NCBI GenBank assembly: GCA_046485285.1
Contig: JAWOHE010000021.1
Coordinates: forward strand, 994 to 64,993
Length of the DNA: 64,000 nucleotides
Source: a bacterium
GTDB taxonomy: Bacteria > Hydrothermota > Tepidihabitantia > Tepidihabitantales > Tepidihabitantaceae
Direction of reading: 5' to 3'
In this document: positions 11,700-60,472 of the stretch, one piece after another
How positions within the stretch are numbered: the stretch's first letter is position 1
Layout of the letters: each line of letters opens with the position of its first letter
Notes under the pieces: generated by a model
Seen by the model: the letters and a program-made list of their open reading frames with translations, nothing else
The model's database searches: none
What the model was told of the DNA's origin: nothing
Translations under genes and position numbers: made by a program

Positions 11700-11753
11700 G
11701 CCGGTCAGTCTATTGACGGTTCCGATGCCGGTCAACCTCGACGCGGCTCTCGT

Positions 11754-11781: not shown

Positions 11782-11787
11782 GACCCC

Positions 11788-12765: not shown

Positions 12766-15171
12766 CTATCTCCTTGCCAGCTCGGCCTTGAGCGCCTCGA
12801 GCTCGGCGCGCATCTCGCGGTTCTGCTCATACAGCGCCTGGATGGCCGCGAGGGTGACACCGTCCATGTCGGCCATGTTGATGCTGGTGTTGTTCTCGCC
12901 GTAACCGAACGCGGCCGAGAAGTCCTGCGCCACTGGCCCGATGTGCCGGGTGCCGTCCTCCTGGTCTTTCATCCGGTACTCGCGCACCCGCAGGGCCGTG
13001 ACCTTCTCGAGCAGTTCCTTTCGGTCGACCGCCCGGAAATCGGTCTTGGTCACCGAGTCGCAGGCCGAGGCCCACGCGTTGGAGCCCGCGGCAAGATACG
13101 CCCCGGTCGTCATCCCGGCGTTCGAGAAGAACCAGGTCCCGCCCCGGGCCCGGACCCGGAACTGGTTTGCGCCGGTGGAATACACGCTCTCACTGGTTGC
13201 GGTCGACGAATCGCTCCAGACAAACGACCCTTGGTGGTTGGCGCGGGCCCGACGACCTGCCGCGAAGGTGTGACTGCCCCGGGCATGGTTGAATTGGCCG
13301 CCGGGAATCGCGGCGTAGCTTCCGGTGGCGATGTTGTTGGCACCACCAGCCACGGTTCCAGCTTCTCCGACGGCATGGTTCCCTGAGCCACCTGCGACAG
13401 ACGCCACGAGGCCGCTTGCGAGGTTAGCGTACCCGCCGGCAACCGTGGCGTAGTTGTTGCTTGCCTCATTAACCACTCCGCCGCCGACAGCCGCGTAGTC
13501 GCCGCTTGCGATGTTCGAGGCGCCGCCCGCGATCGTCCCACCCATTCCCGACGCCGTATGGTTCCGTCCGCCGCCGACCGTGGCGAACATCGCGGTCGCC
13601 GCGTTGTTCTGGCCGCCGGCGACGGTCGCGGCAGTGTCGCCCGCCGCGTTGCCCGCTGAGTTCCGGTATCCGCCGCCGACGAATGCCCGTCTGCCTCGCG
13701 CTCCGTTGCCCCACCCGCCCGAAATCGCAGCCGAGACGGCCGACGCCTCATTGCTGGCTCCGCCGCCGACCGTGGCGTTGTCGGCGCTGGCGTGATTCGA
13801 GCTACCGCCGCCGACCGCGGCGCTCTGGCCGCTCACCTCGTTGTCGTTTCCGCCTGCGATTGTGGCATAGACACCGCCGGCTACGTTGCGGATGCCGCCG
13901 CCGACCGTGGCCGCAAGAGCGCTGGCGGCGTTGTACTGCCCGCCGACCACAACGGCGGCGTTTGCGGTTGCCTTGTTGCGATACCCGCCGCCGACAAAGG
14001 CGTACCAGTCCGACGCTGTGTCGCACTGCCCGCCGCCGACCGTGGCCGCAAGAGCGCTGGCGGCGTTGTACTGCCCGCCGCCGACAAAGGCGTACTCTGC
14101 GATCGCAAGGTTGCCGTAACCCCCGGTAACGGTCGCGCCGGTATCTGCGACCGCATCGCCGGCCGTGTTTCGCAGGCCACCGCCGATGGCCGCATAGAGG
14201 CCGTAGGCCTCGTTGTCCGAGCCGCCGACAACCGAGGACCTGCCGCCGCTGGCGTGGTTCGACGCACCGCCGCCGACAAACGAGTAGCCGCCGGCCGCGC
14301 GGTTCTCACCACCGCCGCCAATGTGCGAGTAGATGCTGGAGGCGCTATTGTCTGCACCGCCCGAAACCGACGAGTAGTTCGCCGATGCGACGTTGCCCTC
14401 GCCCGCGACAAACGCCGCGGTGCCGGCATTCGAGTTGCCCGGCCCTATGCGTCCCTTGCCGTACACCCGCAGGTCGGTCGTCACCGCGAAACTGCCCGGC
14501 ACCGAGTCCGGTACCGTGCCACCGCCACCAATGCTGTCGTTCCTAGGCGCCCAGGCCGTGCCGGTCCATTTCAGCACCTGCCCGGTCCCCGCGCCCATCT
14601 GGTTCAGGTCCGACGCGACAATCGTGCCGTTGATTATCATCGCCGAGGTCACCGAGCTCGCCTGCCCGGTCCGGACAAACCCCGTCGTGTCCTTGCCCTG
14701 CAACAGGTCCGCGCTCGCCGCCCGCTCGGAAAGGTAGGCATAGCCGGCTGATGCTATCCGCAACCGCGGCACGAGCTCTGCCCCGCCCTCAATCGCCATC
14801 GTGAGATACGCCGCGCCCGCGTCCGGCATCGAGCCAATCGGCGTCACCGACCCGAGCAGGACCGCGAACAGCCCATCCTCCGTCGTCACGCTCCGCGTCT
14901 CGTTCCAGAACGCGCTCCCGCCCGAAGGCAGGGTGTAGAGCCGGAACACCACCGAGTAGCTGCCGTTGGGCACCGGCACGCCGAGCGTGTCGGTCAGCCT
15001 GCCCTGGTAGGACAGGAACCGCGGTATCGTAATGGCGTCGAGGTTGTCCGAGCCTGGCGCCTGTCGGTTGTCGCTTTTGGTCTGGTGAATGCCGATTTGC
15101 GGCAATACCGCGTCGTCCGCGGCAGATGCCGCCAGGCACAGGACTGCGAGCAGGACTGTCGTCCTACACAT
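12766..15171 (-). CDS. Secreted repeat adhesin-like protein with C-terminal tail-fibre / peptidase S74 intramolecular-chaperone domain
   Basis: Start ATG 15171 follows GGAGGAGAAG. Signal peptide MCRTTVLLAVLCLAASA. N-domain ISYQGRLTD-type (FLSYQGRLTDTLGVPVPNGSYSVVFRLY). About 400 aa of GGxxNxAxGxxxxVxGG head-like repeats. The C-terminus TDFRAVDRKELLEKVTALRVREYRMKD...GPVAQDF...DGVTLAAIQALYEQNREMRAELEALKAEL matches the S74 chaperone domain of phage tail spikes. The 121-codon N-terminal extension of ORF 12766..15534 is rejected. Confidence 0.8.
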   Translation of the reverse strand: MCRTTVLLAVLCLAASAADDAVLPQIGIHQTKSDNRQAPGSDNLDAITIPRFLSYQGRLTDTLGVPVPNGSYSVVFRLYTLPSGGSAFWNETRSVTTEDGLFAVLLGSVTPIGSMPDAGAAYLTMAIEGGAELVPRLRIASAGYAYLSERAASADLLQGKDTTGFVRTGQASSVTSAMIINGTIVASDLNQMGAGTGQVLKWTGTAWAPRNDSIGGGGTVPDSVPGSFAVTTDLRVYGKGRIGPGNSNAGTAAFVAGEGNVASANYSSVSGGADNSASSIYSHIGGGGENRAAGGYSFVGGGASNHASGGRSSVVGGSDNEAYGLYAAIGGGLRNTAGDAVADTGATVTGGYGNLAIAEYAFVGGGQYNAASALAATVGGGQCDTASDWYAFVGGGYRNKATANAAVVVGGQYNAASALAATVGGGIRNVAGGVYATIAGGNDNEVSGQSAAVGGGSSNHASADNATVGGGASNEASAVSAAISGGWGNGARGRRAFVGGGYRNSAGNAAGDTAATVAGGQNNAATAMFATVGGGRNHTASGMGGTIAGGASNIASGDYAAVGGGVVNEASNNYATVAGGYANLASGLVASVAGGSGNHAVGEAGTVAGGANNIATGSYAAIPGGQFNHARGSHTFAAGRRARANHQGSFVWSDSSTATSESVYSTGANQFRVRARGGTWFFSNAGMTTGAYLAAGSNAWASACDSVTKTDFRAVDRKELLEKVTALRVREYRMKDQEDGTRHIGPVAQDFSAAFGYGENNTSINMADMDGVTLAAIQALYEQNREMRAELEALKAELARR

Positions 15172-15599
15172 CTTCTCCTCCTTACTCCTCTGTGAACCTG
15201 CCCCCAAGCTCGGGCGGGCGCGTGCTATGTGACCTATGCCGCGCGGCCGCGCCCGGAGAGTCCGGTAACTCCCCGTCTTCGCGTCTCCATTGCCGCGAAA
15301 TCCCTGTCCGAGGGTGGGATGTAACAGGTTGAGGATAGATGCGGGTCGCCCGGCTGTCAATGGCCGGTGTCTGGGAACCGGCCAGTTGCTGCCTGAACCC
15401 GGACCCCCAGACCCTATCCCCACCAGCATCCCCGGAGCGGCCCCCGGAACCGTCCCGGGGGATATCCCCAGGTATACCCCCGGAGCGCTCCTGACTGCCT
15501 CGGACTTACAGGAAAAGTGGGTAGTGTGCGCCAATTCTGTTGGAAATCGGGGCGGGTACAGGAGGATGGCCGCGGATGCGAGCGCCCCGCGCGGCCGGT

Positions 15600-15635
15600 C
15601 GAAAGCAGCCGCCCCGTTCAGGGCCGGGGCGGCAG
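15600..15635 (-). terminator. Terminator-like hairpin after the TonB-type receptor gene
   Basis: On the minus strand: CCGCCCCG-gccctgaa-CGGGGCGG followed by CTGCTTTCG, starting about 15 nt after the stop at 15652. Confidence 0.5.
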
Positions 15636-15651
15636 AACCGCTACCCGCCGG

Positions 15652-18099
15652 CTAGAGCTCGTCCCCGCCGAAGTCGTCGTCGCCGTTGTCGTCCGACGGC
15701 TGGCGGCGACGGTCGAGCCGGAAGTCGTTGAAGTTCCAGGTCAGGCTGAACGACGCCTGGGGCCAGGCCCGGCCGAAGACATCGCGGCTGTAGAACTCGT
15801 AGCCTTCGCCGCCTGAGGTGAAGTCGTGCCGCGACTGGCCGAGCAGGTTGCGGGCCGAGAGCGCAACCGACAGCCGGCGGCCGAAGAACTGCTGGCGGAT
15901 GCCGGCGTCGGTCCGGATGAAGCCCTCAGACCGACCCTGCGAGGTCACGCTCGGGCTCTCGTAGCCGGCGTTGAACTGGAGCCGGGTGTTGGTCGGCAGG
16001 CGGAACTCGTTGCCGAGCCGGCCGCTCCAGTTGTGGCTGGAGCGCTCGCCCCGGTCGGTCTCGATCCGGTAGTCATAGGTTGTCGCGGTCAGGTTGATGG
16101 TCCACCACTTGAACGGAACGAGCTCGGACGAGAGCTCGACCCCGAGCGACCGGTCCTTGCCGACGTTGTCCATCGTGTGGAGGATAACCTCGGGCGCATA
16201 GACTGTCCGGACGCGCTCGATGAGGTCCGTCGTCGCGCGCAGGTAGGCCTCGAGCGAAACCCGGTTCGCGCCGAACGGCAGGGTCGCGCCCGCCTCGTAG
16301 GAGTTGATGCGCTCGGGCAGCAGGCTCGGATTGCCGCGCCGGACGTTCCAGGCGTCCTGCCAGACGAGGAACGGGAAGAGTTCCCAGCCCCGCGGCCGGC
16401 GAATGCGCCGGGCGTAGCTCGCCATCAGCTCGACGTTGGCCGGCAGGCGCCAGGACAGGTGGGCGGTCGGGAAGATGTCAAGCGTCCTGATCGGCGGGAC
16501 CGGGCCGGAGTCGGTCTCCATCACCCGGCGGTTGTGCTCGCCGCGCAGGCCGGCCTTGTAGCCGAGCGGGCCGAACTCCCCGGTCCAAGTCGAGTAAAGC
16601 GCGTGGACGTCGTTGACCATCCTCATCCCGTAGCTGTAATCGGGCCGGGGTATGAACCGGCCCGAGTCCGGGTCAAAGACCTCGAACGCGCTGGTCTGGC
16701 GCGGCCCGCCCAGCCCGGCCGAGTAGCCGGCTTCGAGCTTGGCGGCGGCGGCGGCGACCTCGAGCGGCAGGACGTAGTCGAGGTTAACGCCCCAGCGGTC
16801 GCCCGGCCCGGAGCTCAGCGCTTTCCAGCCGTAGGTCAGCGTGCCGGCCGTGTCGGCCAGCGTCGTCACCGCGTCGGCGTCGTGGCCGCGCCGGCTGTAC
16901 TCGACCCGCCCGCTGAGTTCGTGGGCGTCGCCGTTGGTGGCCGCCGGGCCGAACCGGTGCCGGTGTTCGAGGTTGACCGCGAGGTGGTTGCCGCCCATCG
17001 TCGAGCTGTCGGCGCTCGAGTAGCGCGCCGTGTCGGCGGCGGTGGTCCAGCGCGTGAAGTCGGTCGCGCCGCTCCTGCCGTTGCTCCGGAGCCCGAACCG
17101 GCTGCCGAGGATGGTCCGGTCCGCCGCGCTCCACTGGAGTTCGACCCCGGCTCGCGCGCCGCCGAACTGCCCGCCCCAGTTCGAGCTACCGTCCGCGAGC
17201 GACCAGGTCGTGTCCGCGCCGTCCGCGGTCCAGCCCTCGGAGCGGCGGGTCCCGGGCGACGCCCGGCGGTTGTAGTCCGCGCCGACGATGAAGCTGGCGA
17301 TGCCGGTCCGCCAGTTGAGCATCAGGTCCCCGCCGTACCGGCCCCAGAGGCCGGCGGTCGCGCTCGCCTGGCCGCTCAGGCCCTGCCGGCGCTGCTGCCT
17401 GAGGATGAGGTTGATGATGCCGGCCGCGCCCTCCGGGTCGTACTTCGCCGACGGGTTGGTGATTATCTCGACGCGCTCGAGCGAGCTCGCTGGCGTCTGC
17501 TGGAGCGCCTCGTCCGGCTCGAGCAGGGTCGGCCGGCCGTCGATCAGGACCGTGAAGTTGCCGCTCCCGCGCAGGGTGACGTTGCCCTCGACGTCGACCT
17601 TGACCGAGGGCGCGTTCTCGATGATGTCGACCGCGGTGCCGGACACCGCCGCCGCCTGCCGACCGACCTCGATGACTTTCTTGTCGATCTGGTAGGAAAA
17701 CGTCGGCCGGTCGGCGACCGAAACCGCGCCCTCGACCGCGACCGCGAGCTGGCGCAGGTCGATGCGGCCGAGGTCGAGCCGGGCCCCGGGCGCGAGCTCG
17801 ACGTCGCTCACCGTCCGCGGCCGGTAGCCGATGAACGAGACCTCGACGTGGTACCGGCCCGGCGGCAGGTTGGGAACCTCGAACCGGCCGTCGGCCCGGC
17901 TGACCGCGCCGCTGACCTGGCTCGAGTCGCGGAGCCGGTAGACCACGATATTGGCGTACTCGACCGGCTCGGAGAACTGCGAGTCGAAGACCTGGCCGGT
18001 CAGCGCGCCCGGCGCCCGGCCCGGACCGGGCTGGGCCGCCGCGGGAAGGACGAGAAAAGAGGCTGAAACCGCCAGTGCAAGTAGGGTTCGCTGACTCAT
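15652..18099 (-). CDS. TonB-dependent-receptor-like outer-membrane beta-barrel with CarboxypepD_reg domain
   Basis: Starts MSQRTLLALAVSASFLVLPAAAQ (signal peptide) at ATG 18099. CarboxypepD_reg-like GQVFDS...GRFEVPNLPPGRYHVEVSFIGYRP. Plug-like IENAPSVKVDVEGNVTLRGSGNFTVLIDGRP. A long beta-strand-rich region ends ...SFSLTWNF. Confidence 0.82.
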   Translation of the reverse strand: MSQRTLLALAVSASFLVLPAAAQPGPGRAPGALTGQVFDSQFSEPVEYANIVVYRLRDSSQVSGAVSRADGRFEVPNLPPGRYHVEVSFIGYRPRTVSDVELAPGARLDLGRIDLRQLAVAVEGAVSVADRPTFSYQIDKKVIEVGRQAAAVSGTAVDIIENAPSVKVDVEGNVTLRGSGNFTVLIDGRPTLLEPDEALQQTPASSLERVEIITNPSAKYDPEGAAGIINLILRQQRRQGLSGQASATAGLWGRYGGDLMLNWRTGIASFIVGADYNRRASPGTRRSEGWTADGADTTWSLADGSSNWGGQFGGARAGVELQWSAADRTILGSRFGLRSNGRSGATDFTRWTTAADTARYSSADSSTMGGNHLAVNLEHRHRFGPAATNGDAHELSGRVEYSRRGHDADAVTTLADTAGTLTYGWKALSSGPGDRWGVNLDYVLPLEVAAAAAKLEAGYSAGLGGPRQTSAFEVFDPDSGRFIPRPDYSYGMRMVNDVHALYSTWTGEFGPLGYKAGLRGEHNRRVMETDSGPVPPIRTLDIFPTAHLSWRLPANVELMASYARRIRRPRGWELFPFLVWQDAWNVRRGNPSLLPERINSYEAGATLPFGANRVSLEAYLRATTDLIERVRTVYAPEVILHTMDNVGKDRSLGVELSSELVPFKWWTINLTATTYDYRIETDRGERSSHNWSGRLGNEFRLPTNTRLQFNAGYESPSVTSQGRSEGFIRTDAGIRQQFFGRRLSVALSARNLLGQSRHDFTSGGEGYEFYSRDVFGRAWPQASFSLTWNFNDFRLDRRRQPSDDNGDDDFGGDEL

Positions 18100-51450: not shown

Positions 51451-52245
51451 ATGAAGATACCGGTCGACACGACGTTCGAGAACAAGGACCCCTACCGGAT
51501 CCTCGGCGTGCCGGTTGAGGCCGACCCGGCCGCCATCCGCAAGGCCTACCTCGACCTCGTCCGGAAGAACCACCCCGACCTCTTCGCCACCGACCCGACC
51601 CGGTACCTCGCCTCGACCGCGCTGATGCAGGACATCGGCGGCGCCTACGAACTGCTCAGCGACCCGGCCCGGCGCGAGCTCTGGGACCGCCAGCACCCCG
51701 CCGAACGCAAGCCTGCCCCGCGCCCGGCCGCGAAGCGGAAGGTGCATCCCGAGTCCCCGCACGTGAACCTCGTCATCCGGAAATACAACGAGTTCGTCAG
51801 GTCCCTGCGCACCCCGGCCGAACAGCGGGCTGCCGTCCGGAAAGTCAGGGCCTTCCAGGCGAGCCGGGCCGGTTACGCCTTCATCAGGAAGCTCATCGAC
51901 CGCCACTACCTTGAAGTCATCGACCGGCTCAGCCTCTGCGCACGCATCACGGAATTCGACGACGGGCTCGTCGAGATAACCTTCCTCTATCCCGGCGCGC
52001 TCGAAGTCGCGCCCGGGAATGTCTACGTCACCTACGCCTACCTCGTCCACCGGCAGAACAAGGGCAGGCTCCCGCCCGAGCCGGTCGCGCGCCGGCGGGC
52101 GCAGGTTCCTCCGCGCCCCGCTGACTATCGGCTCCGCGTGCCACAGCCGCCCCGCGAGCCCGCGCCGCCTCGCCGGGCACCGAAAAGCGTCTCGGCCCGC
52201 GTCTGGGACTGGCTGATGGCCAAGCCCGGCTCCCCCCGCCGCTGA
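51451..52245 (+). CDS. J-domain (DnaJ-like) protein
   Basis: DPYRILGVPVEADPAAIRKAYLDLVRKNHPDLF is a J domain with the HPD tripeptide. The remainder is unrecognised, with a Pro/Arg-rich tail. Confidence 0.8.
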   Translation: MKIPVDTTFENKDPYRILGVPVEADPAAIRKAYLDLVRKNHPDLFATDPTRYLASTALMQDIGGAYELLSDPARRELWDRQHPAERKPAPRPAAKRKVHPESPHVNLVIRKYNEFVRSLRTPAEQRAAVRKVRAFQASRAGYAFIRKLIDRHYLEVIDRLSLCARITEFDDGLVEITFLYPGALEVAPGNVYVTYAYLVHRQNKGRLPPEPVARRRAQVPPRPADYRLRVPQPPREPAPPRRAPKSVSARVWDWLMAKPGSPRR

Positions 52246-52252
52246 GACCACC

Positions 52253-52532
52253 GGGCCGAAGTTCATCGTTCCTGGTTCATAGTTCAGGGTTCAGAATGCA
52301 TCCTTCGTCGCTCGGGGTTCCGTTCTCTGCAGGAGCGACATCCCTGTCGCGATCCGGTTCGGCAGCCAGTCCGTCATTTCGACCAGCGTGGAGAAATCCC
52401 TCTCCGGCCCGTCAGGGCCGTGGTTCAAGGTTCCTGGTTCATAGTTCAGCGTTCAGCGCACCCCCTCGTACCGGCCTCTCTGGGCCGCTCGACCTCATCC
52501 TCTCCCCACCCACCCACCCATCTGCCCCGCGC
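52253..52532 (+). repeat. Left copy (DR-L) of a composite non-coding repeat, plus an extra heptad array and a REP-like hairpin
   Basis: 52371-52532 aligns at roughly 85% by eye with 57188-57345. Shared parts are CCGTCATTTCGACC..GTGGAGAAATCCCT, GGGCCG..GGTTCCTGGTTCA.AGTTCA..GTTCAGCG and CTCGTACCGGCC...CGCTCGACCTCATCCTCTCCCCAC...CCCCGCGCC. A second heptad array (GGGCCGAAGTTCATCGTTCCTGGTTCATAGTTCAGGGTTCAG) lies at 52253-52294. A GCGAC-ATCCCT-GTCGC hairpin lies at 52335-52350. Confidence 0.8.
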
Positions 52533-52577: not shown

Positions 52578-52838
52578 CTACCGATACCTGCGGCGCTCGG
52601 GTATCACCCCGCGCAAGCCGCCCTCGGGGTCAGTGAGGTCGCCCCGGTATCTCGGTATCACGTGGACGTGGGCGTGCGGGACCGCCAGCCCGGTCAGACC
52701 GGAGGCGGGACATAAAAATGCGGTTGCCGTCACCGGTGGACCCTGGTGAAACCACCGGCGCGAACAGGCCGAAAACTCCCGGCCAATTCGGTCACCGTCA
52801 CCGATAACCCAAGCATTACCCAAGCACGCGTCAACCAT
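52578..52838 (-). pseudogene. HIT-family hydrolase, N-terminally truncated or decayed
   Basis: The 86-aa ORF ends GLAVPHAHVHVIPRYRGDLTDPEGGLRGVIPERRRYR, which carries the HxHxHxx histidine triad and conserved tail. Only about 54 residues precede the triad, versus about 100 in intact HIT proteins, and the usual N-terminal strand motifs are absent. Confidence 0.5.
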
Positions 52839-52850: not shown

Positions 52851-52879
52851 TTGACCGTTAGGTTTTCATGGTATAGAAT
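52851..52879 (+). promoter_or_regulatory. Sigma70-type promoter abutting a start codon (leaderless candidate)
   Basis: TTGACC (52851-52856), 17-nt spacer, TAGAAT (52874-52879), then 5 nt to ATG 52885. This AT-rich patch contrasts with its surroundings. Confidence 0.6.
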
Positions 52880-52884
52880 TGCCC

Positions 52885-54024
52885 ATGGTTGACCGCAAGC
52901 TGGATATCGGACTGGTACGCACCGCACTGAAACGTAGCCGGGTTGTCGCCCTGCTCGGACCGCGCCAGTGCGGGAAGACCACTCTGGCCCGCAAGTTCGT
53001 TCCGGCCGGTGCCCTCAACTACTTCGACCTCGAAGAGCCGACCAGTTTCGCCCGGCTCAACGAACCGGAAACGGCCCTGCGGCCGCTCAAGGGACTGGTG
53101 GTCATAGACGAAATCCAGCGTCGTCCGGAGCTGCTCCCGCTTCTGCGCGTACTGGCGGACCGACGGCCACTCCCGGCGCGCTTCCTCATCCTGGGCAGCG
53201 CCTCGCCCGAGTTGTTGCGCCGGTCGTCTGAAACCCTGGCCGGCCGACTGGAAACAGTCCCTCTGGCCGGATTCCGGCTGGCCGACCTCGGCAACGCGGC
53301 CCGAAACCGGCACTGGGTGCGGGGCGGCTTCCCCCCGGCATACACCGCCCGGACCGAAACCGACTCGCTGGCCTGGCGGCAGCAGTTCATCCAGGCCTTC
53401 CTTGAACGCGACATCCCCCAGTTGGGAGTCGTCATCCCGGCGGTAGCGCTCCGACGTTTCTGGAGCATGACTGCCCATTACCACGGCCAGACCTGGAACG
53501 GAGCTGAACTCGCCCGTGCGCTGGCGGTCAGTGAGCCGACCGTACGGCGCTACCTCGACCTGTTGACCGGGGTATACATGGTTCGGCAACTGCCGCCCTG
53601 GTTCGAGAACGTCGGCAAGCGACAGGTCAAAGCGCCGAAGGTCTATGTCCGCGACAGTGGCCTGCTTCACGCCCTGCTCGGCGTAGGCGCCCGGCGCGAG
53701 CTCGAATCGCACCCCAAAGTCGGTGCCTCCTGGGAGGGCTACGCGGTGGAAGAAATCCTCAAGGCACTGAACCCGGACCAGGCCTACTACTGGGCCACGC
53801 ACCAAGGGGCGGAACTCGACCTGCTGCTCTTCAAACGCGGTCGCCGCATCGGGGTAGAATGCAAGCGTACTGACGCGCCCGTGCTTACGTCCTCGATGCG
53901 CACTGCTCTGTCCGACCTGAAGCTGAGCGAACTGCTCGTCGTCTACCCCGGCGAGAGGTCCTATAGGTTGGCCGACAAAGTCAGGGTCCTGCCGCTCACC
54001 CGACTCCTGACAACTAACGCCTGA
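52885..54024 (+). CDS. AAA-type ATPase with DUF4143 domain
   Basis: Walker A LLGPRQCGKTTLA, Walker B-like VVIDEIQ, and a DUF4143-like C-terminal half (YLDLLTGVYMVRQLPPWFENVGKRQVKAPKVYVRDSGLLHALLG...GASWEGYAVEE). ATG 52885 is preferred over the track's TTG 52879 because of the promoter. Confidence 0.82.
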   Translation: MVDRKLDIGLVRTALKRSRVVALLGPRQCGKTTLARKFVPAGALNYFDLEEPTSFARLNEPETALRPLKGLVVIDEIQRRPELLPLLRVLADRRPLPARFLILGSASPELLRRSSETLAGRLETVPLAGFRLADLGNAARNRHWVRGGFPPAYTARTETDSLAWRQQFIQAFLERDIPQLGVVIPAVALRRFWSMTAHYHGQTWNGAELARALAVSEPTVRRYLDLLTGVYMVRQLPPWFENVGKRQVKAPKVYVRDSGLLHALLGVGARRELESHPKVGASWEGYAVEEILKALNPDQAYYWATHQGAELDLLLFKRGRRIGVECKRTDAPVLTSSMRTALSDLKLSELLVVYPGERSYRLADKVRVLPLTRLLTTNA

Positions 54025-54029: not shown

Positions 54030-54165
54030 ACCGGTCCTGCTCACGACCGGGACGTCGGCGAGCGTCGTCCTGCGCTTCGCCCTCGGCGGCAGGTGGCAAA
54101 CCCGCCCCCAGCCCGGTCAGGCCGGACGCGAGAAAGAGAATGCGGCTGCTGTCACGGAATCCCGG
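54030..54165 (-). pseudogene. Relic of a second HIT-family gene
   Basis: 54108-54157 (CCAGCCCGGTCAGGCCGGACGCGAGAAAGAGAATGCGGCTGCTGTCACGG) is homologous to 52685-52736 inside the HIT gene. It translates on the minus strand as ...RILFLASGLTGLGAG..., compare TATAFLCPASGLTGLAV. The histidine-triad segment is deleted. Confidence 0.5.
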
Positions 54166-54170: not shown

Positions 54171-55463
54171 TCAGCGGAGCGCCTGACGCTCCCACTCGGA
54201 CTTCACCCTGGCGGAGCAGGCGGCAACGCTGCGATGGAATCCCCGGTCAGCCAGCTCCGCCTGCAGACCTTCGCTCGCCTGCTTCAGCGGAGCGAGGCGC
54301 CGCACTCGGCGGTAGCGGTCATACCACTTCACCCAGCCTGCCGCCAGCTTCTGCTCGGCGGCGGTCCAGTGCGGATTGCGCGGCCCGCGCAGACCCCGTT
54401 GGTGGGCCAGATTCAGGATCGCCATGTGAATCGTGTCGAGCGTATGGCTGGGGAGGCGGCGCAGTTTCAGCGGGCCGGTTCTTGCCAGGCGCGCAACCCG
54501 GCGCCCAATCGCGGCCAGGCACTGCTCGGCCGCGGCCCGCCAGTGCGGCAGTGCGCCGTTGTGAACCATCATCGCATACCGCTCAACCAGCCGCTCCTCG
54601 GTCTTCGTCAGCCAACTGTGACTGCGCGGCAACCCGGTGCGCGTCGCCTCGGTGCGAAGCGCGAACCGCACCGCCTTGTACGTCCGCGAGCCGCCCAGCT
54701 CGCGAAAACAGGCCTGCGCCGCGTCGTCGGAAAACTTGTGGCGTCCCTCGAACAACAGTCGCAGGTGACGGTTCAGCGCCCGGCGTTCGGCGGGTGTCCA
54801 CTCGTGCTTGAGCTTGGGCAGGCCCAGCTCGTGGGCGGCCGTGTACAACATCCAGTAGATGCCGTAGAACGGCCGCGGCCGCGGGTCGGTGCGGGCCAGC
54901 TCGCGCCGGCACGCCCTGGCGGCCTCGCGCATGCTCGGGTAGCGGCCGGCGAGATACGCCCGGGCATACCGGCGGATGGCCTTCATCTCCTGCAACCGGC
55001 GGCGGTGGAACCGCGCGCCCACGCCGGCGGCCCGCAACGCCTTGCTGAGACGCGCGTTCACCGTGCGTGAGGAACGGGCGGGCAACCGCGGCCCGTCGCG
55101 CTGACTCCGGCGCAGCGCTCCCAGCTCGCGCACACACCCCCGCACCGCGCCGGGCACATCCAGCGACGGATTGTCCGCGAACTTCGCGACCCAGCGCCGG
55201 ATGACGTCCAACTCGGCAGGCCGCCAGCGATAGCCGGGTGCGGACACCCCGGCCGCCAGCCTTCGCTCCCCGAGCTTGTACCTGACCGCAGACACCGAAC
55301 GGCGGGCACGACCGCCACTCGAGACCGCCAGCGCCGCGTGGCATGCCCGCGCCGCCTCGCTGCTGGAGACGTACCGGCCCTGCCCGAGCGCCCGGACGAA
55401 ACGGTCAACGACCGCAAGCTCGCGCGCCGTCCAGCCGTCCCGACGCTTCACTCCGGCCCTCAT
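54171..55463 (-). CDS. Hypothetical protein built from six tandem SANT/Myb-like three-helix repeats
   Basis: 430 aa, Arg-rich. Six ~65-70-aa repeats open with W(T/R)xxE: WTARELAVVDRFV, WRPAELDVIRRWV, (R)LQEMKAIRRYA, WTPAERRALNRHL, WLTKTEERLVERY, WTAAEQKLAAGWV. Each is followed by an AAxxCxxEL-like helix and an R(S/T)xxAVxxxL-like helix. Confidence 0.65.
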   Translation of the reverse strand: MRAGVKRRDGWTARELAVVDRFVRALGQGRYVSSSEAARACHAALAVSSGGRARRSVSAVRYKLGERRLAAGVSAPGYRWRPAELDVIRRWVAKFADNPSLDVPGAVRGCVRELGALRRSQRDGPRLPARSSRTVNARLSKALRAAGVGARFHRRRLQEMKAIRRYARAYLAGRYPSMREAARACRRELARTDPRPRPFYGIYWMLYTAAHELGLPKLKHEWTPAERRALNRHLRLLFEGRHKFSDDAAQACFRELGGSRTYKAVRFALRTEATRTGLPRSHSWLTKTEERLVERYAMMVHNGALPHWRAAAEQCLAAIGRRVARLARTGPLKLRRLPSHTLDTIHMAILNLAHQRGLRGPRNPHWTAAEQKLAAGWVKWYDRYRRVRRLAPLKQASEGLQAELADRGFHRSVAACSARVKSEWERQALR

Positions 55464-55564: not shown

Positions 55565-55708
55565 CCTGCCGCGGCCGGAAGGCCCCGGAGAATGCGGTTG
55601 CCGTCACCGCTATCAAGAAACAGGTGGTTGTCCCTGATTCCGTTCTGATTCCTCCTTCTCCAGCGCGAGGATGTCGGCGCGGATTTCTTCGAGCGTGCGG
55701 AGCGGCGG
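55565..55708 (-). pseudogene. Relics: second hsdM C-terminal tail (55613-55708) and third HIT-like fragment (55565-55610)
   Basis: The minus strand translates PPLRTLEEIRADILALEKEESERNQGQPPVS*, and 55654-55699 is a 46-bp copy (1 mismatch) of 56825-56870. Immediately downstream, GCGGTGACGGCAACCGCATTCTCCGGGGCCTTCCGGCC matches the HIT-gene segment CCGGTGACGGCAACCGCATTTTTATGTCCCGCCTCCGGTC. Confidence 0.55.
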
Positions 55709-55731: not shown

Positions 55732-56793
55732 TCACTTGAGGGTAGTACGCTTACTCCGGACCTGCCGCCAGCGGGCGGCCGGGCCGCGGCCGCGGCAGAT
55801 CACTTCGCCGGACCTCTTCATCTCGGCCAGAACCAGCCGAATCCACTCGCGTCCTACGCCGGGACACGCCTGCTCGATGTCAGCCAGGCGGAACTCGCCG
55901 GCGCGAGCCCGAACGGCACGCAGTACGAGTTCACGCTTCGCGCCCCGCGGCGCCTGGACCTGTCCCACCCGCTCCTCGAACTCCCGATAGGCCGACTTCA
56001 GGGTGTAGAGCACGAAGTTGACGTAGTGCCAGGGGTTGTTTTTGCCCTGGTGCCAGCCCTCGGAACTCAGCTCCAGCGTCTCGTAGTAGCGGTCTTTGTT
56101 CTGCTCAACCAGTCGTTCCAGGCTGATGTACCGGCCGACCTCGTATCCGAGGTGATAACACTGAAGCAGCATGAGCAGCCGCGAGACCCGGCCGTTGCCG
56201 TCGCGGAACGGGTGGATGCACAGGAAGTCGAGGTTGAAACCGGCCAGGGCGATTACCGGATGAACCGTGCGTTCGCGACGCAGGTCTCGCCAGAGGTTGA
56301 CCATCTCTTTACTGTCGGCCGCGATCCTCTCCGGGGCGACGGTGCGGAACCGGACGCGCTCGCGCCCGTCCGCATAGCGCTGGATGATGTCGCAGGGTTT
56401 GGTACGGTACTTGCCGGCGTCCCATATCTGGCCGCGGGCCAGCCGGTGAAGACGCTTGATGACCGCTTCGGTGACCGCCAGTCGGCCGCCGCGTTCATGC
56501 ACGTCTTTGAGTGCGTCGCGGTAGCCGCGAACTTCTTCCTCATCGCGGTCACGCAGGAGCGAGCGGCCGATGATGACTGGTCGGATGCGGGCCGGGGCGA
56601 TGCTGACACCCTCGATGCGATTGGACGATACTGCACTCTCAATCAGTGCGTGCTCACGTAGAACCTTGAGTAGTTGCGGCGACTGGCGCGTGAACAGCTC
56701 CTGCCTGCCTTGCGACTTGTCGAGGTCGGCAAGATACCAGGCGGTGACTGCGGGGATAGACTCCAGACCGGCGGCAAACCGGCGCAGGGTCAC
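55732..56793 (-). CDS. Fic family protein (AMPylase-type), with N-terminal inhibitory-helix motif
   Basis: Fic core motif IHPFRDGNGRVSRLL (HxFx(D/E)GNGRxxR). N-terminal SNRIEG fits the (S/T)xxxE(G/N) auto-inhibition motif. The C-terminus is winged-helix-like. GTG start overlaps the stop of the hsdM fragment (GTGA). Confidence 0.88.
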   Translation of the reverse strand: MTLRRFAAGLESIPAVTAWYLADLDKSQGRQELFTRQSPQLLKVLREHALIESAVSSNRIEGVSIAPARIRPVIIGRSLLRDRDEEEVRGYRDALKDVHERGGRLAVTEAVIKRLHRLARGQIWDAGKYRTKPCDIIQRYADGRERVRFRTVAPERIAADSKEMVNLWRDLRRERTVHPVIALAGFNLDFLCIHPFRDGNGRVSRLLMLLQCYHLGYEVGRYISLERLVEQNKDRYYETLELSSEGWHQGKNNPWHYVNFVLYTLKSAYREFEERVGQVQAPRGAKRELVLRAVRARAGEFRLADIEQACPGVGREWIRLVLAEMKRSGEVICRGRGPAARWRQVRSKRTTLK

Positions 56794-57005
56794 TCCAGCA
56801 CCTCCTTCAGCAACCCTTCCGTCTCCTTCTCCAGCGCGAGGATGTCGGCGCGGATCTCTTCGAGCGTGCGCAGTTCCTGCGGCTTGTAGAAGTAGCGGTT
56901 GAAGCTGATTTCGTAGCCAATCTTGGTCTTGCTTTCGTCAATCCACGCATCCTTTGCGTACGGCAGCACCTCGCGCCGGATGAACGCCTCGACCCCGCCT
57001 TCCAC
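56790..57005 (-). pseudogene. 3'-terminal fragment of a type I R-M methyltransferase gene (hsdM)
   Basis: EGGVEAFIRREVLPYAKDAWIDESKTKIGYEISFNRYFYKPQELRTLEEIRADILALEKETEGLLKEVLE is the characteristic HsdM C-terminal tail. An in-frame TGA lies about 10 codons upstream of the GTG, and no methyltransferase core is present upstream. Confidence 0.7.
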
Positions 57006-57187: not shown

Positions 57188-57345
57188 CCGTCATTTCGAC
57201 CGAAGTGGAGAAATCCCTTTCCGGCCCGCCAGGGCCGAAGTTTAAGGTTCCTGGTTCACAGTTCATCGTTCAGCGCTCCCCTCGTACCGGCCCATCTCCG
57301 CCGCTCGACCTCATCCTCTCCCCACTCGCCCATCCTCCCCGCGCC
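57188..57345 (+). repeat. Right copy (DR-R) of the composite non-coding repeat
   Basis: Direct-orientation partner of 52371-52532 (see DR-L). Contains the GTCATTTCGACC..GGAGAAATCCC unit, a 5x heptad array AGTTTAA-GGTTCCT-GGTTCAC-AGTTCAT-CGTTCAG (about 57240-57275) and the conserved tail. It ends 22 bp before the -35 box of the PLD-SNF2 operon. Confidence 0.8.
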
Positions 57346-57412: not shown

Positions 57413-60400
57413 ATGGCAGGCAAACTACCGACCATTATCGACAACCAGGGCGAAGTCACGCTCCGGGACGCCGTGGCACAGATCGCAGCCTCGACGAAGG
57501 AGCTCGACATCGCTACCGGGTTCTTCGAGCTGGGCGCGCTTCTCTCGCTCGACGGCGAATGGCAGCGCATCGGCAACGTTCGGATACTCCTCGGCGACCC
57601 GGCCAGCAGGAAAACGCGCCGCGAGTTGGTTGAGGCGTTCCGCCGCGGAAACGAAGATGCCATCGAGCAGTGCAAGGAACGGGACGACACGCTAACCGGC
57701 ATCGAAGCCGTCCGACAGGCACTCGACACCAGAAAGATTGCGGTTCGCGTCTACACCCGGGAGCGGTTCCACGCCAAGAGCTACATCTTCCACACCGAGC
57801 CGCCCAACCCGGTTGACTTCGCGGTCGTCGGCAGCAGCAACTTCACGCGGCCCGGGCTGGTCAAGAACGTCGAGCTCAACCTGCTGACCACCGACCAGGT
57901 CCACATCGAGAAGCTGAGCGAGTGGTTCGCCGGAATGTGGAACGACGCCGAGCAGCGCCTGCTCAACGAGGAAGCACTCGAAATCATCGCCCGCCATACC
58001 CGCGAGTACACTCCGTTCGAGGTCTACGCCAAAGCGCTCTACGAGTTCTTCGCCGGCAGGCAGAAGTCATCGGACGATTGGGAGCGGACCGAAAGCGCCG
58101 TCTACCCGCGCCTGTCCAAGTACCAGCAGGACGGCTATCACACGGCTCTGCGCATGGCCGAGAACTGGGGAGGAGCGCTCGTCTGCGACGGCGTCGGCCT
58201 CGGCAAGACCTACATCGGCCTGATGCTGCTGGAACGGCTCATCCACGACAAGAACCGGGTCCTGCTCATCGTGCCCAAGTCAGCCGAGGACAGCGTCTGG
58301 CTTCGACACATCCGCCCTTCGACAGCGAATCCCGACCCGATTCTCAAGCACCTGCACCGCTCCGTGTTTGGCCAGCTCTTCCGTGTCAAGCGTCACACCG
58401 ACTTCGGACGGCCCGGCACGATCCCCGAAGCCGAACTGCAGGAGCTTGAGCGGGACACCGACGCCATAATCGTCGATGAGGCCCATCACTTTCGGACTCC
58501 CTCGGCCTATCGCAGCAAGATGCTCAAGCGACTGGCGAAGGGAAAGCGGGTATTCCTGCTCACCGCCACGCCCATCAACAACCGCCTGCTTGACCTCTAC
58601 GAGCTCATCAGCTGCTTCGCGCCTGAGAAGGACCACTTCCGGAGCATCGCCATCCAGGACTACCGCCGGCTGTTCTCCAGACCCGACCGGCAGTTCGAGG
58701 AAGCCATCCGGCTCGGAGACTGGCGCGACCTGGCCGAGGTCGACAAGTTTCTGAGCGAGCAGCAGCTCTTCCGGCAGATCCTCATCCAGCGTAGCCGGCG
58801 CTACGTCAAGGAGTCCGAACAGGGCCGGGCCAACGCACCGATCTTCCCGGTGCGCCAGCGGCCGCGCGTCATCCGCTACTCCCTGCGGAAGGTGTACGCG
58901 ACCATCTATGACGAGATCAAGCAGGCGTTCGACCGCGAGGCGCCGTTCCTCAACCTCGCCCTCTACTGCACCGAGGCATACCGGAAGGGCGAGCCGGCCG
59001 AGAAGAAGCTCCTCGAACAGAAGCAGGTCGTCGGACTCATCCGGACGCTCCTGCTCAAGCGGCTGGAAAGCTCCTACAAGGCCTTTGAGGCGTCGGTCGA
59101 AGACCTGCTGGCAAAGATGGCCGAGTTCGTCCGCGCCTACGACCCCGACAAGTACGAAGGCTGGGTCAAAGCCAACGGCCGCTACTGGAGCCGCATCAAG
59201 GACCACCAGCACGCGCGGCTGGAGCTGTCCGACACCGAGGCCGAGGAAGAGGACCAGGAGGAAAATCTCCTGCCCGAGAGCCTGCAGATCGCGACGGCCG
59301 AGTACCATATGGACCGGCTCCTCGGCGACGTCATAGACGATATGAACGTCCTGCTCGAGTTCCTCGCCAAGATTGCGAAGCGGTTCTACACCACCGACGA
59401 CCGTGAGGACCCGGCGAGGGATGACAAGCTCCAGAAACTGCTCCTCCTGCTGACTTCGCCGCCCGACAAGGGCGAGCCGGACATCCGCGGCAGGAAGGTG
59501 GTCATCTTCTCCGAGTTCCGCGACACGGCCCGCTACCTGCTCCGGCAGCTCCGGGACGCTGGCCTGAAGGACGTCGAGGAAATGGACAGCACCCGGAAGA
59601 TGAACCGCGAGGAGGTCATCAAGCGGTTCGCGCCCCACTACAACTGCGAACCCGGTCAGGTCAGCGAGTACCTCGACAAGCCCATCAACATCCTGGTCTC
59701 GACCGACGTGCTCTCCGAGGGGCTCAACCTCCAGGACGCCTCGCTGATGGTCAACTACGACCTGCACTGGAACCCGGTGCGCCTGATGCAGCGCATCGGC
59801 CGCGTCGACCGGCGGATGGACGAGGCAATCGAGCGGCGGCTCAAGCGGCCGCGCCAGTTGGCCGGCAAGGTCTTCTTCTGGAACTTCCTGCCCCCGAAGG
59901 AACTCGAGGAGATCCTCGGGCTGTTCCGCCGCGTCACCGGCAAGGTACTTCGCATCAACGCCGCGCTCGGCATCGAGGGCGCTCTGCTCACGCCCGACGA
60001 CCCGGAGATGACGCTCAAGGAGTTCAACGAAGCCTACGAGGGCCGGGAAAGCGTCGAGGAGCAGATGCGACGCGAACTGGAGCGGGTCGAGCGGGAGCTG
60101 CCCGAGCTCTACGCGGAACTGGCCGACCTGCCGCGCCGGGTCTTCTCCGGCCGGGTAAGGGCGAGCCGAGTGCCGCTCAAGCCAGGGGTCTTCGCCGCCT
60201 ACCGAGTCTGGTCCGACCCGGATGCGAGGACATCCGACGTCCACTGGTACTACCGGGAACGCGGGAGCGGCGCCATCACCGAGGGCCTCGAGGAAATCTG
60301 GAAGACGGTGCGCTGCGAACAGGCCGAGCCGAGGGTGGTCAAGCTAGGCCCGAAGGGCCTGTCGCCGGAGCACGAGGCCATCGAAACCCACCGCGTCCGC

Positions 60401-60472
60401 AAGCTGATGCGCGACCGCGGCCTGCCGCTCTCGGTCAAGCCCGTGCTTGCCTGCTGGCTGGAGATTGCGTGA
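57413..60472 (+). CDS. PLD-nuclease-domain / SNF2-family helicase fusion protein
   Basis: 1019 aa. N-terminal HKD motif RFHAKSYIFH...FAVVGSSNFTRPGL. SNF2/DEAH core: CDGVGLGKTY (I), IIVDEAHHFR (II), FLLTATPINN (III), VSTDVLSEGLNLQ (V), DLHWNPVRLMQRIGRVDR (VI). Confidence 0.9.
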   Translation: MAGKLPTIIDNQGEVTLRDAVAQIAASTKELDIATGFFELGALLSLDGEWQRIGNVRILLGDPASRKTRRELVEAFRRGNEDAIEQCKERDDTLTGIEAVRQALDTRKIAVRVYTRERFHAKSYIFHTEPPNPVDFAVVGSSNFTRPGLVKNVELNLLTTDQVHIEKLSEWFAGMWNDAEQRLLNEEALEIIARHTREYTPFEVYAKALYEFFAGRQKSSDDWERTESAVYPRLSKYQQDGYHTALRMAENWGGALVCDGVGLGKTYIGLMLLERLIHDKNRVLLIVPKSAEDSVWLRHIRPSTANPDPILKHLHRSVFGQLFRVKRHTDFGRPGTIPEAELQELERDTDAIIVDEAHHFRTPSAYRSKMLKRLAKGKRVFLLTATPINNRLLDLYELISCFAPEKDHFRSIAIQDYRRLFSRPDRQFEEAIRLGDWRDLAEVDKFLSEQQLFRQILIQRSRRYVKESEQGRANAPIFPVRQRPRVIRYSLRKVYATIYDEIKQAFDREAPFLNLALYCTEAYRKGEPAEKKLLEQKQVVGLIRTLLLKRLESSYKAFEASVEDLLAKMAEFVRAYDPDKYEGWVKANGRYWSRIKDHQHARLELSDTEAEEEDQEENLLPESLQIATAEYHMDRLLGDVIDDMNVLLEFLAKIAKRFYTTDDREDPARDDKLQKLLLLLTSPPDKGEPDIRGRKVVIFSEFRDTARYLLRQLRDAGLKDVEEMDSTRKMNREEVIKRFAPHYNCEPGQVSEYLDKPINILVSTDVLSEGLNLQDASLMVNYDLHWNPVRLMQRIGRVDRRMDEAIERRLKRPRQLAGKVFFWNFLPPKELEEILGLFRRVTGKVLRINAALGIEGALLTPDDPEMTLKEFNEAYEGRESVEEQMRRELERVERELPELYAELADLPRRVFSGRVRASRVPLKPGVFAAYRVWSDPDARTSDVHWYYRERGSGAITEGLEEIWKTVRCEQAEPRVVKLGPKGLSPEHEAIETHRVRKLMRDRGLPLSVKPVLACWLEIA

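What the first reader, a model, noticed from the sequence alone, without database searches (positions are those of the whole stretch)
54171..55463. 430-aa protein made of six tandem SANT/Myb-like repeats in a bacterial accessory island
The ORF has host-like codon bias and a clear ~65-70-aa periodicity. Each repeat opens with W(T/R)xxE(x)3(L/V)xx(W/F/Y). It continues with a helix of type (E/D)AAxxCxxEL and a third helix R(S/T)xxAVxxxL. That is the three-helix layout of SANT/Myb DNA-binding repeats, which are common in eukaryotes and rare as long arrays in bacteria. The protein is very Arg-rich, consistent with nucleic-acid binding. It sits between HIT relics and next to Fic, so it may be a mobile-element or defence-associated DNA-binding factor with no described family.
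Basis: inference. Interest (0 to 1): 0.6.

Follow-up and report, generated by a model that had tools for sequence, protein, structure and literature searches.

The report
Basic six-repeat three-helix protein family
This gene encodes a very arginine-rich protein made only of six tandem three-helix modules, one of an undescribed multi-copy family confined to one family of the uncultured WOR-3 phylum, which most likely binds DNA or RNA and only weakly resembles Myb/SANT repeats.

Summary
ORF 54171-55463 (-) encodes 430 aa, 17.6% Arg, pI 11.6. It consists of six 57-73-aa units, each matching a family repeat profile at E 5e-10 to 4e-20. AlphaFold2 gives 18 helices, 6 x 3, at pLDDT 87.

It is a real, conserved gene. 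There are 205 homologue clusters, all built only of 1-13 such units (mode 6), and dN/dS is 0.24-0.36. In reference genomes the family occurs only in one family of candidate division WOR-3 (18 of 272 genomes of the phylum). Copy number is 1-9 per genome, with five loci in this one. Pfam, NCBIfam, PHROGs, PADLOC and PDB sequence searches give no hit.

The Myb/SANT reading is only partly supported. A profile-profile comparison gives 73-81% probability, restricted to helix 1. A few units hit Myb Pfam models below threshold. Foldseek finds nothing significant, and the best TM-scores are to homeodomains.

The genes sit alone in variable islands rich in restriction, toxin-antitoxin, Fic and DnaJ-like genes, with no constant partner. 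The local GTTCA arrays are not a family-wide companion.

The likeliest function is modular nucleic-acid binding, with helix 3 as a unit-specific surface. That is inferred, not shown. I rate it a new variant of a known kind, of moderate interest.

The parts
54171..55463 (-). Gene for the 430-aa six-repeat basic protein (P0001). The database copy P0002 starts 4 codons later, at GTG.
55248..55433 (-). Repeat unit 1 (residues 11-72)
   Evidence: iE 2.8e-17; helices 13-27, 34-48, 57-70
55023..55229 (-). Repeat unit 2 (residues 79-147), with GRY replaced by DNP
   Evidence: iE 2e-14; helices 82-97, 103-120, 132-145
54819..54992 (-). Repeat unit 3 (residues 158-215). It lacks the opening Trp (HRRRLQE).
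   Evidence: iE 3.9e-20; helices 157-171, 178-192, 199-212
54630..54800 (-). Repeat unit 4 (residues 222-278), the shortest and most canonical. It was modelled alone at pLDDT 90.4, pTM 0.74.
54390..54608 (-). Repeat unit 5 (residues 286-358), with a long helix 2 and loop
   Evidence: iE 2.1e-15; helices 287-301, 308-329, 342-356
54186..54371 (-). Repeat unit 6 (residues 365-426), a distinct C-terminal subtype (WVKWYDRYRRVRRL...AC..R). It is the best-conserved unit among orthologues.
54105..54155 (.). HIT-gene fragment directly downstream of the gene, one of three copies in the island
   Evidence: (D4, D5)
55588..55607 (.). HIT-gene fragment about 125 bp upstream of the start codon
   Evidence: (D4)
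55732..56793 (-). Neighbouring Fic gene (PADLOC SoFic model, 5.2e-28), upstream on the same strand after a 268-bp gap. This is context; it is not shown to be a partner.
51451..52245 (+). J-domain (DnaJ-like) 264-aa gene. It is a recurrent but not constant neighbour of family members. This is context.

Best explanation
The gene encodes one member of an undescribed paralogous family restricted to one family of candidate division WOR-3. Family proteins are built only from tandem ~65-aa three-helix modules and are among the most positively charged large proteins of the cell. The most likely mechanism is as follows. Each module is a small tri-helical, homeodomain-like/Myb-like bundle. Its core is held by W2, Y/F13, Y/F22, A28, C32, L36, V54 and L58. 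Helix 1 carries a conserved Arg-rich face. Helix 3, capped by an invariant R-T/S, carries a surface that differs from unit to unit. Strung together flexibly, six such modules would bind an extended stretch of nucleic acid, most probably double-stranded DNA. The basic faces would give affinity and the helix-3 faces would give specificity. The protein would then act as a stand-alone regulator or architectural factor. The genes live, duplicate and decay in variable islands rich in restriction-modification, toxin-antitoxin, Fic and other accessory genes. Shown here: the repeat architecture, the fold class, the family, its taxonomic range, selection, charge and genomic context. Inferred: nucleic-acid binding, helix 3 as the recognition surface, and any regulatory role.
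For: Each of the six units matches the repeat profile. The structure is 18 helices, 6 x 3, at pLDDT 86.7; a single unit modelled alone gives pLDDT 90.4 and pTM 0.74. The whole-protein pTM is only 0.46, which fits modules joined flexibly.

The family is large and homogeneous. There are 26 close homologues and 205 cluster representatives at E<=1e-3. Members carry 1-13 units, mode 6, with no other domain.

Net charge is +56. The paralogues rank #1, #2 and #4 of 905 predicted proteins of at least 300 aa in this genome for charge density. Arg is 17-21% against a genome median of 9.5%.

Selection is purifying: dN/dS is 0.24 and 0.36. Each unit keeps its own identity across orthologues: core positions are 0.76 identical for the same unit index against 0.43 for different indices.

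The exposed face of helix 3 is the most variable surface. Relative entropy is 0.1-0.8 bits at positions 51, 52, 55, 56, 59 and 60. Identity there is 0.07 between different units but 0.36 for the same unit across orthologues.

There is a Myb/SANT-like signal. hhalign gives 73-81% probability (P 1e-5 to 3e-5) over W-T-x-x-E...G-x-Y, while homeodomain, Cro and P22 c2 controls give below 0.5%. Three sub-threshold Pfam Myb hits occur among 99 units. The best Foldseek TM-scores are to DNA-bound homeodomains: 4uus_F at TMq 0.60 and rmsd 2.6, and 4j19 at TMt 0.57.

No constant operon partner was seen across about 28 loci.
Against: No binding experiment exists, and no significant sequence or structure match to any solved DNA-binding domain was found. 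The Myb-like similarity covers helix 1 only, and the helices are longer than in Myb. No candidate target motif was found; the local GTTCA arrays are absent from the family's loci in other genomes. High-GC genomes inflate Arg and Ala content in general. A variable exposed helix face would equally fit protein or RNA recognition, or simply weak constraint.
Confidence: 0.5

Rival explanations
1. It is a true, divergent member of the Myb/SANT superfamily: a bacterial tandem array of Myb-type DNA-binding repeats, homologous rather than merely analogous.
For: hhalign gives 73-81% probability to a Myb/SANT profile that itself retrieves c-Myb, TRF1/2, CDC5, SNAPC4 and SANT domains from the PDB. W2, T3, E6 and the aromatic at +20 align with the first and second Trp of Myb. 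The R-T/S cap of helix 3 aligns with the Myb 'RT' when the alignment is extended. Myb_DNA-bind_4 and Myb_DNA-bind_6 are hit by 3 of 99 units, and by the consensus of the C-terminal unit at E 0.1 over its full length.
Against: All Pfam hits are far below the gathering score, and the whole protein gives none at E<=10. The confident alignment covers only 19-28 columns. The third conserved aromatic is replaced by Leu/Ile, and units are 57-73 aa against about 52. Foldseek lists no Myb/SANT structure among the hits for the single unit. A PDB profile search hits c-Myb only at E about 1.
Confidence: 0.35
2. It is a modular RNA-binding helical-repeat protein, working like PUF, PPR or OPR proteins. It would bind specific transcripts or structured RNAs.
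For: It combines extreme basicity, a tandem helical-repeat architecture, a variable unit number of 1-13, and one hypervariable helix face per unit.
Against: There is no similarity to any RNA-binding repeat family in Pfam or the PDB. The only specific signals point to tri-helical DNA-binding folds. No adjacent RNA gene or RNA-processing gene recurs.
Confidence: 0.15
3. It is a protein-interaction scaffold or co-chaperone client or adaptor, as many SANT domains are. It might work with the neighbouring J-domain protein or with Fic, for example as a regulator, target or decoy of a Fic AMPylase in a defence module.
For: A Fic gene is adjacent in 3 loci: the window, L001 and L059. The window's Fic matches the PADLOC SoFic model. 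A 260-aa J-domain protein lies adjacent or within 10 kb in 4-5 loci. Its genome distribution overlaps that of the family: 12 genomes have both, 6 have only the repeat family, 3 have only the J-protein, and 23 have neither, out of 44.
Against: The Fic partners are only about 28% identical and occur in three different orders and orientations. Most loci have neither Fic nor the J-protein next door. The co-distribution is dominated by one genus; at genus level the overlap is 3 genera against 1.6 expected. A net charge of +56 is unusual for a protein scaffold. PADLOC has no model for the protein.
Confidence: 0.12
4. It is a decaying or non-functional ORF in a mosaic of gene relics.
For: The gene lies between HIT and hsdM fragments in a 4.8-kb mosaic. 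Some paralogues elsewhere carry stops or frameshifts.
Against: The frame is intact, with all six units and all family-invariant residues present. GC3 is 0.854. dN/dS against the 61%-identical orthologue is 0.36.
Confidence: 0.03

Closest known systems
Myb/SANT repeats (Pfam PF00249 and relatives; c-Myb R1-R3, TRF1/2, CDC5, SNAPC4 arrays)
   Same: Both are tandem three-helix units. Each unit opens with W-(T/S)-x-x-E and has a second aromatic about 20 residues later. An R-T/S caps helix 3. The basic character is that of DNA-binding Myb rather than acidic SANT. hhalign gives 73-81% over helix 1.
   Different: Units here are 57-73 aa with longer helices and a variable loop before helix 3. The third Trp is replaced by Leu/Ile. 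A buried Cys sits in helix 2. The protein is below every Pfam threshold. Arrays reach up to 13 units with no other domain. The host is bacterial (WOR-3) and the family is confined to one taxonomic family.
Homeodomain-like tri-helical HTH fold (homeodomains, Tc3/IS transposase HTH)
   Same: These give the best structural superpositions: Exd homeodomain 4uus_F at TMq 0.60 and rmsd 2.6 A over 53 columns, HOT1 4j19 at TMt 0.57, and TnpE 2rn7 at TMq 0.51.
   Different: Foldseek E-values are 4-7, so none is significant. hhalign to homeodomain sequences gives below 0.5%.
Modular nucleic-acid-binding repeat proteins (TALE, PUF, PPR)
   Same: All are stand-alone arrays of helical units with a variable unit number. 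Each unit has a conserved scaffold and one hypervariable exposed patch.
   Different: No sequence or fold relationship was found. Units here are only 22-42% identical to each other and keep a fixed order among orthologues, so this is not a recently shuffled array. No recognition code is known.
RecX (three tandem three-helix repeats, basic, binds RecA-DNA filaments)
   Same: It is a small, basic bacterial protein made of tandem three-helix units. Two of 99 units give weak hits to RecX_HTH2.
   Different: The best E-value is only 0.13. RecX lacks the W..E/GRY/AA..C signature. NCBIfam and Pfam give no hit for the whole protein.

Membership tests
Myb/SANT (PF00249 and related Pfam models) | A match to a family HMM at or above the curated gathering score | tested here: not met
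   The whole protein gives 0 families at E<=10. Single units give Myb_DNA-bind_4 at E 0.0048 (2 of 99) and Myb_DNA-bind_6 at E 0.016 (1 of 99). The consensus C-terminal unit scores 13.4 bits against a cut-off of 27.
Myb/SANT | A unit of three helices forming a small bundle, with helices 2-3 as the HTH | tested here: met
   AF2 gives three helices per unit in all six units at pLDDT 87. The single unit has helices at 6-20, 27-38 and 44-58, with pLDDT 90.4 and pTM 0.74.
Myb/SANT | Three regularly spaced Trp or aromatic residues (W-x18-19-W-x18-19-W) forming the core | tested here: not met
   The first is W in 94% of units. The second position (+20) is Y/F in 68%. The third is replaced by L/I (position 58) after a variable loop.
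Myb/SANT | Profile-profile similarity over the whole unit | tested here: inconclusive
   hhalign gives 73% (A2 vs A3) and 81% (936 units), with P 1e-5 to 3e-5. Only 19-28 columns align, covering helix 1 and the turn. The extended alignment places R-T at the helix-3 cap with low confidence.
Myb/SANT | Structural superposition on solved Myb/SANT domains | tested here: inconclusive
Myb/SANT | Sequence-specific DNA binding through helix 3 | not testable with these tools
   This needs EMSA, SELEX or a co-structure.
SoFic / Fic-based defence (PADLOC) | The protein matches a component model of the system, or is a constant partner of Fic | tested here: not met
   PADLOC gives no hit for the repeat protein or for 4 relatives, whereas the neighbouring Fic hits SoFic at 5.2e-28. 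Fic is adjacent in only 3 of about 28 loci.
Phage-encoded protein families (PHROGs, IMG/VR) | A match to a phage protein family, or presence on viral contigs | tested here: not met
   PHROGs gives no hit for P0001. No relative was found in IMG/VR using two conserved motifs. BFVD fold search gives nothing at E<=0.001.
RsfA-type bacterial Myb-like regulators (NCBIfam) | A match to the NCBIfam model | tested here: not met
   NCBIfam gives 0 families at E<=10.

The most novel reading that the evidence does not exclude
The family is a new modular nucleic-acid-recognition scaffold. Each ~65-aa tri-helical unit would read a few bases through its hypervariable helix-3 face, and arrays of 1-13 units would spell long, lineage-specific targets. 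The paralogues would diversify in defence and mobile islands of WOR-3 bacteria as regulators or sensors of foreign DNA. This would be functionally analogous to TALE or PUF codes but built from Myb-like units.
Probability: 0.12. Interest if true: 0.8.

Novelty: new variant of a known kind. Interest (0 to 1): 0.5.

Why it matters
Long stand-alone arrays of Myb-like or homeodomain-like three-helix units are typical of eukaryotic factors and are not a described bacterial protein class. Here a whole family of more than 200 sequence clusters, with up to 13 units, has expanded within one family of an uncultured phylum. Its members are among the most basic large proteins of the cell. The family escapes every curated library searched. 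If the units bind DNA or RNA in a modular way, the family would be a new recognition scaffold, and it would give a handle on gene regulation or island biology in WOR-3, where almost nothing is known experimentally. If it is only a lineage-specific architectural protein, it is still a clean candidate for a new Pfam family.

Tried and rejected
Whole-protein Foldseek against the PDB and BFVD gave only long, low-TM helical matches. This is expected, because the inter-unit geometry is uncertain (pTM 0.46).

A PDB profile search with the repeat alignment gave a BMC-H shell protein at 2.6e-5. I reject it as an Ala/Arg compositional match in a non-helical-repeat fold.

The search for related loci with the 25-sequence alignment failed because no conserved 7-10-column stretch exists. 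With the single protein it found only two WOR-3 genomes.

I tested the GTTCA heptad arrays as a candidate target. There are 23 arrays in this genome, near 2 of its 5 paralogue loci. There are none in about 350 kb of family loci from other genomes. I reject them as a family-wide partner.

The consensus promoter and terminator scan around the gene found nothing.

Two literature searches found no description of such a family.

I looked for HIT-gene fragments near other family members or elsewhere in the genome. There are none, so the cassette-like flanks are a feature of this locus only.

Full report
1. THE OBSERVATION

The ORF 54171..55463 (-) exists and encodes 430 aa. Its GC by codon position is 0.71/0.575/0.854. 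That is the pattern of a true coding frame in this ~70% GC contig and matches the neighbouring genes. Arg is 17.6%, Ala 15.5% and the pI is 11.6.

I cut six units by eye and aligned them. I then built a repeat profile iteratively over 170 family proteins, giving 936 units. Against this profile the six units of the window protein, at residues 11-72, 79-147, 158-215, 222-278, 286-358 and 365-426, score independent E-values of 4.9e-10 to 3.9e-20. The periodicity, the opening W(T/R)xxE, the AAxxCxxEL helix and the R(S/T)xxAV helix are therefore real. They are also the family consensus: RWTPEELRVLDRYARALARGRYRSARAAARACRRELARLRRRGPRLPPRTLSAVRARLLRRARALGR.

2. IT IS A REAL, CONSERVED GENE FAMILY

The word-indexed search found 26 homologues, the closest at 61% identity from a GenBank (NCBI) MAG. 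The exhaustive HMMER search of 1.84 billion representatives found 205 clusters at E<=1e-3, 141 at E<=1e-10 and 52 at E<=1e-30.

All members consist of the same unit repeated 1-13 times, with a mode of 6. Only four have more than 90 aa not covered by units, so there is no enzymatic or other domain.

Among orthologues the six units keep their order and individual identity. The C-terminal unit is a distinct and best-conserved subtype: W..WVRWYDRYRxVRRLxPLxQAAEGL...RS..AC.

Nei-Gojobori dN/dS is 0.36 against the 61%-identical orthologue, and 0.24 for another pair. dS is about 0.85, near saturation.

3. WHO HAS IT

Record titles of the two related GTDB (release 232) reference-genome contigs read 'candidate division WOR-3 bacterium'. 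A profile search of 272 genomes of the phylum found the family in 18. All 18 belong to the window's own taxonomic family, in 6 of 110 genera, with 1-9 matches per genome. Some copies carry internal stops.

The window's genome is 2.34 Mb in 102 contigs and 88% complete. It has five loci: C64 (this gene), C42 (7 units), C101 (6), C9 (5-6) and C51 (3+3 units in two frames, so frameshifted).

No relative was found in IMG/VR.

4. STRUCTURE

With the 25-sequence alignment, AlphaFold2 gives mean pLDDT 86.7 and exactly 18 helices, three per unit. pTM is only 0.46, which I read as confident modules with uncertain mutual orientation. Unit 4 modelled alone with 99 aligned units gives pLDDT 90.4, pTM 0.74 and helices at 6-20, 27-38 and 44-58.

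Foldseek found nothing significant.
- For the whole model against the PDB, the only compact local hit was the DNA-bound HOT1 homeodomain 4j19 (probability 0.72, TMt 0.57).
- For the single unit, the best superpositions were the Exd homeodomain 4uus_F (TMq 0.60, rmsd 2.6 A over 53 columns, E 7) and the IS protein TnpE 2rn7 (TMq 0.51).
- BFVD gave nothing useful.

So the fold class is a small tri-helical bundle of the homeodomain-like kind. This is suggested, not proven.

5. IS IT MYB/SANT?

Pfam and NCBIfam give no hit for the protein even at E<=10. The PDB sequence search gives none. A PDB profile search with the unit alignment gives c-Myb R3 only at E about 1, and a compositional false positive on top.

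Scanning 99 diverse units one by one against Pfam gave about 33 weak hits. Three of them fall in Myb families: Myb_DNA-bind_4 twice (best E 0.0048) and Myb_DNA-bind_6 once (E 0.016). PhyR_sigma2 was hit three times and RecX_HTH2 twice. That is an enrichment for Myb, but every hit is far below the gathering score.

I checked that it is a valid Myb/SANT profile. It retrieves c-Myb, B-Myb, WER, SNAPC4, TRF1/2, CDC5/CEF1, RADIALIS, Ada2-like and ZZZ3 SANT domains from the PDB, at E down to 1e-70.

hhalign of the unit profile against this Myb profile gives 73% probability, P 3e-5, over 28 columns. With all 936 units it gives 81%, P 1.2e-5. Engrailed and Antennapedia homeodomains, Cro and P22 c2 give 0.1-0.3%.

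The aligned part is helix 1 and the turn. W2 aligns with the first Trp of Myb, T3 with T, E6 with E, and Y22 with the second Trp. Extending the alignment places the family's R-T/S on the 'RT' that caps Myb helix 3, after a 17-residue insertion, but with low confidence. The C-terminal unit subtype behaves the same way, at 71% over 19 columns. Its consensus hits Myb_DNA-bind_4 at E 0.1.

My verdict is that the units have a Myb/SANT-like signature and a compatible fold. Membership is not established: two defining features were tested and not met, namely the HMM threshold and the third aromatic.

6. WHAT THE UNIT LOOKS LIKE FUNCTIONALLY

Per-position statistics over 936 units show three things.
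- A conserved core: W2 94%, E6 94%, Y/F/W13, A14, G20 74%, Y/F22, A28 90%, C32 70% (otherwise L/F, so a buried position), L36, V/I54, L/I58, G66 92%.
- A conserved Arg-rich exposed face on helix 1 (R8, R12, R15), and R49 (85%) with T/S50 at the N-cap of helix 3.
- One clearly hypervariable stripe at positions 51, 52, 55, 56, 59 and 60, which is one face of helix 3.

Across nine six-unit orthologues, these helix-3 positions are 36% identical between units of the same index and 7% identical between different indices. The corresponding figures are 55% and 22% for the helix-1 face and 76% and 43% for the core. Each unit therefore carries its own, partly conserved helix-3 surface. That is what one expects of a recognition helix, though it does not prove one.

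The protein's net charge is +56. In a crude gene call of the whole genome, the paralogues rank #1, #2 and #4 of 905 proteins of at least 300 aa in charge density. The genome median for Arg is 9.5%. GC content alone therefore does not explain the basicity.

7. GENOMIC CONTEXT

In the window, the gene sits in a 4.8-kb mosaic bracketed by ~150-bp direct repeats at 52371-52519 and 57188-57335, which are 88% identical. Three related fragments of a HIT gene lie at 52682-52733, 54105-54155 and 55588-55607. They separate an AAA_14/DUF4143 ATPase, the repeat gene and the next cassette. Fic is itself flanked by two copies of an hsdM 3' tail.

PADLOC models match three neighbours. Fic matches SoFic at 5.2e-28. 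The ATPase matches PDC-S01 at 6.2e-88. The downstream PLD-SNF2 helicase matches an HKD+Snf2 model at 4.6e-60. The repeat protein and four relatives match nothing. The HIT fragments occur nowhere else in the genome or in the other loci.

Across about 28 loci from other genomes and metagenomes, the gene is usually a stand-alone gene, sometimes a tandem pair. Its neighbours change from locus to locus.
- Toxin-antitoxin genes: HepT/MNT, PIN/Phd, Gp49/HTH and BrnT.
- Restriction and helicase genes: Eco57I-like RM enzymes and SNF2+SWIM.
- Phage-like genes: KilA-N with small genes around it.
- Other genes: DUF2130 and an ECF sigma factor.
- Several families with no Pfam hit: c8 (76-87 aa) and c9 (about 280 aa).

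Fic is adjacent in three loci, but in three different arrangements and with Fics only about 28% identical. A 260-aa J-domain protein is adjacent or within 10 kb in four or five loci. Its genome distribution overlaps that of the repeat family, 12 genomes with both out of 44. The overlap is dominated by one genus.

The GTTCA heptad arrays are part of a repeat dispersed through this genome: 23 arrays, near 2 of the 5 paralogues. They are absent from all family loci of other genomes. They are therefore not a family-wide target.

8. INTERPRETATION

The evidence fits best a lineage-specific, expanding family of modular tri-helical repeat proteins that bind nucleic acid, probably dsDNA. The units resemble Myb repeats in signature and homeodomain-like domains in fold. 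The basic helix-1 faces and R49 would supply affinity, and the helix-3 faces would supply specificity. The residence of the genes in variable islands, their duplication and their occasional decay suggest accessory roles, such as regulators or architectural or sensor proteins of island DNA, rather than housekeeping ones.

RNA binding, a protein-scaffold role (possibly with the J-protein or Fic) and true Myb homology remain open and are scored as rivals. The binding function and the target are inferred only.

No paper describing such a family was found.

9. VERDICT

The Myb/SANT affiliation is suggestive only, and the Fic and GTTCA links are not supported. I rate it a new variant of a known kind (tandem tri-helical HTH-like repeats) of moderate interest.

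Noticed in passing
window 52371-52519 and 57188-57335; genome C62:30357-30702 and dozens of other sites: The first ~40-60 nt of the ~150-bp direct repeats that bracket the mosaic (CCGTCATTTCGACC..GTGGAGAAATCCC..) form a repeat dispersed genome-wide. One site, on contig C62, is a head-to-tail array with ~37-42-nt spacing. It looks like a MITE- or REP-like element.
   Followed up: partly
window 52260-52294, 52422-52456, 57240-57274; 23 arrays genome-wide (e.g. C42:5102-5136, C42:6597-6645, C72:12670-22395): Phased GTTCA heptad arrays form the 3' part of that dispersed element. They lie near 2 of the genome's 5 repeat-protein loci. None occurs in about 350 kb of homologous loci from other genomes.
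   Followed up: yes
window 52682-52733, 54105-54155, 55588-55607; 55652-55702 and 56823-56873: Three diverged copies (80-90%) of an internal HIT-gene segment and two copies (96%) of an hsdM 3' tail delimit single-gene cassettes: ATPase, repeat protein, Fic. The HIT fragments occur nowhere else in the genome.
   Followed up: partly
genome C51:4911-6391 (loci L013, L014): This paralogue of the repeat gene is split into two overlapping frames of three units each. It is either a frameshifted pseudogene or an assembly error.
   Followed up: no
window 51451-52245 (+); L049:6557-7333, L051:15552-16340, L066:7009-7785: A 258-264-aa protein has an N-terminal J-domain and an unknown C-terminal half. It is found in 15 of 44 genomes of the same taxonomic family and recurs near repeat-protein genes.
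   Followed up: partly
L049:4933-5163, L059:9222-9485, L006:6815-7060; L049:3951-4805, L054:6974-7825, L053:7602-8105: Two families with no Pfam match recur directly beside or between tandem repeat-protein genes. One is a 76-87-aa protein (KRKPVVVRADKF...). The other is a ~167-284-aa protein.
   Followed up: partly
window 52879-54024 (+) and 57413-60472 (+): The AAA_14/DUF4143 ATPase matches the PADLOC candidate system PDC-S01 (6.2e-88). The PLD-SNF2 helicase matches an HKD+Snf2 model (4.6e-60). The surroundings are therefore a defence-type island.
   Followed up: partly
genome C81:8468-9547 (-): A 359-aa ORF with 17% Arg ranks third in positive charge density among large predicted proteins. 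It does not match the repeat profile and is unexamined.
   Followed up: no
L064 (G000:C42) 9209-15927: The 7-unit paralogue lies next to four genes: a 119-aa protein I read by eye as a four-helix-bundle (23S rRNA-intervening-sequence type) protein, not scanned against any library; a TPR protein; a small fragment; and a 1196-aa Eco57I/MmeI-like type IIG restriction-modification enzyme.
   Followed up: partly
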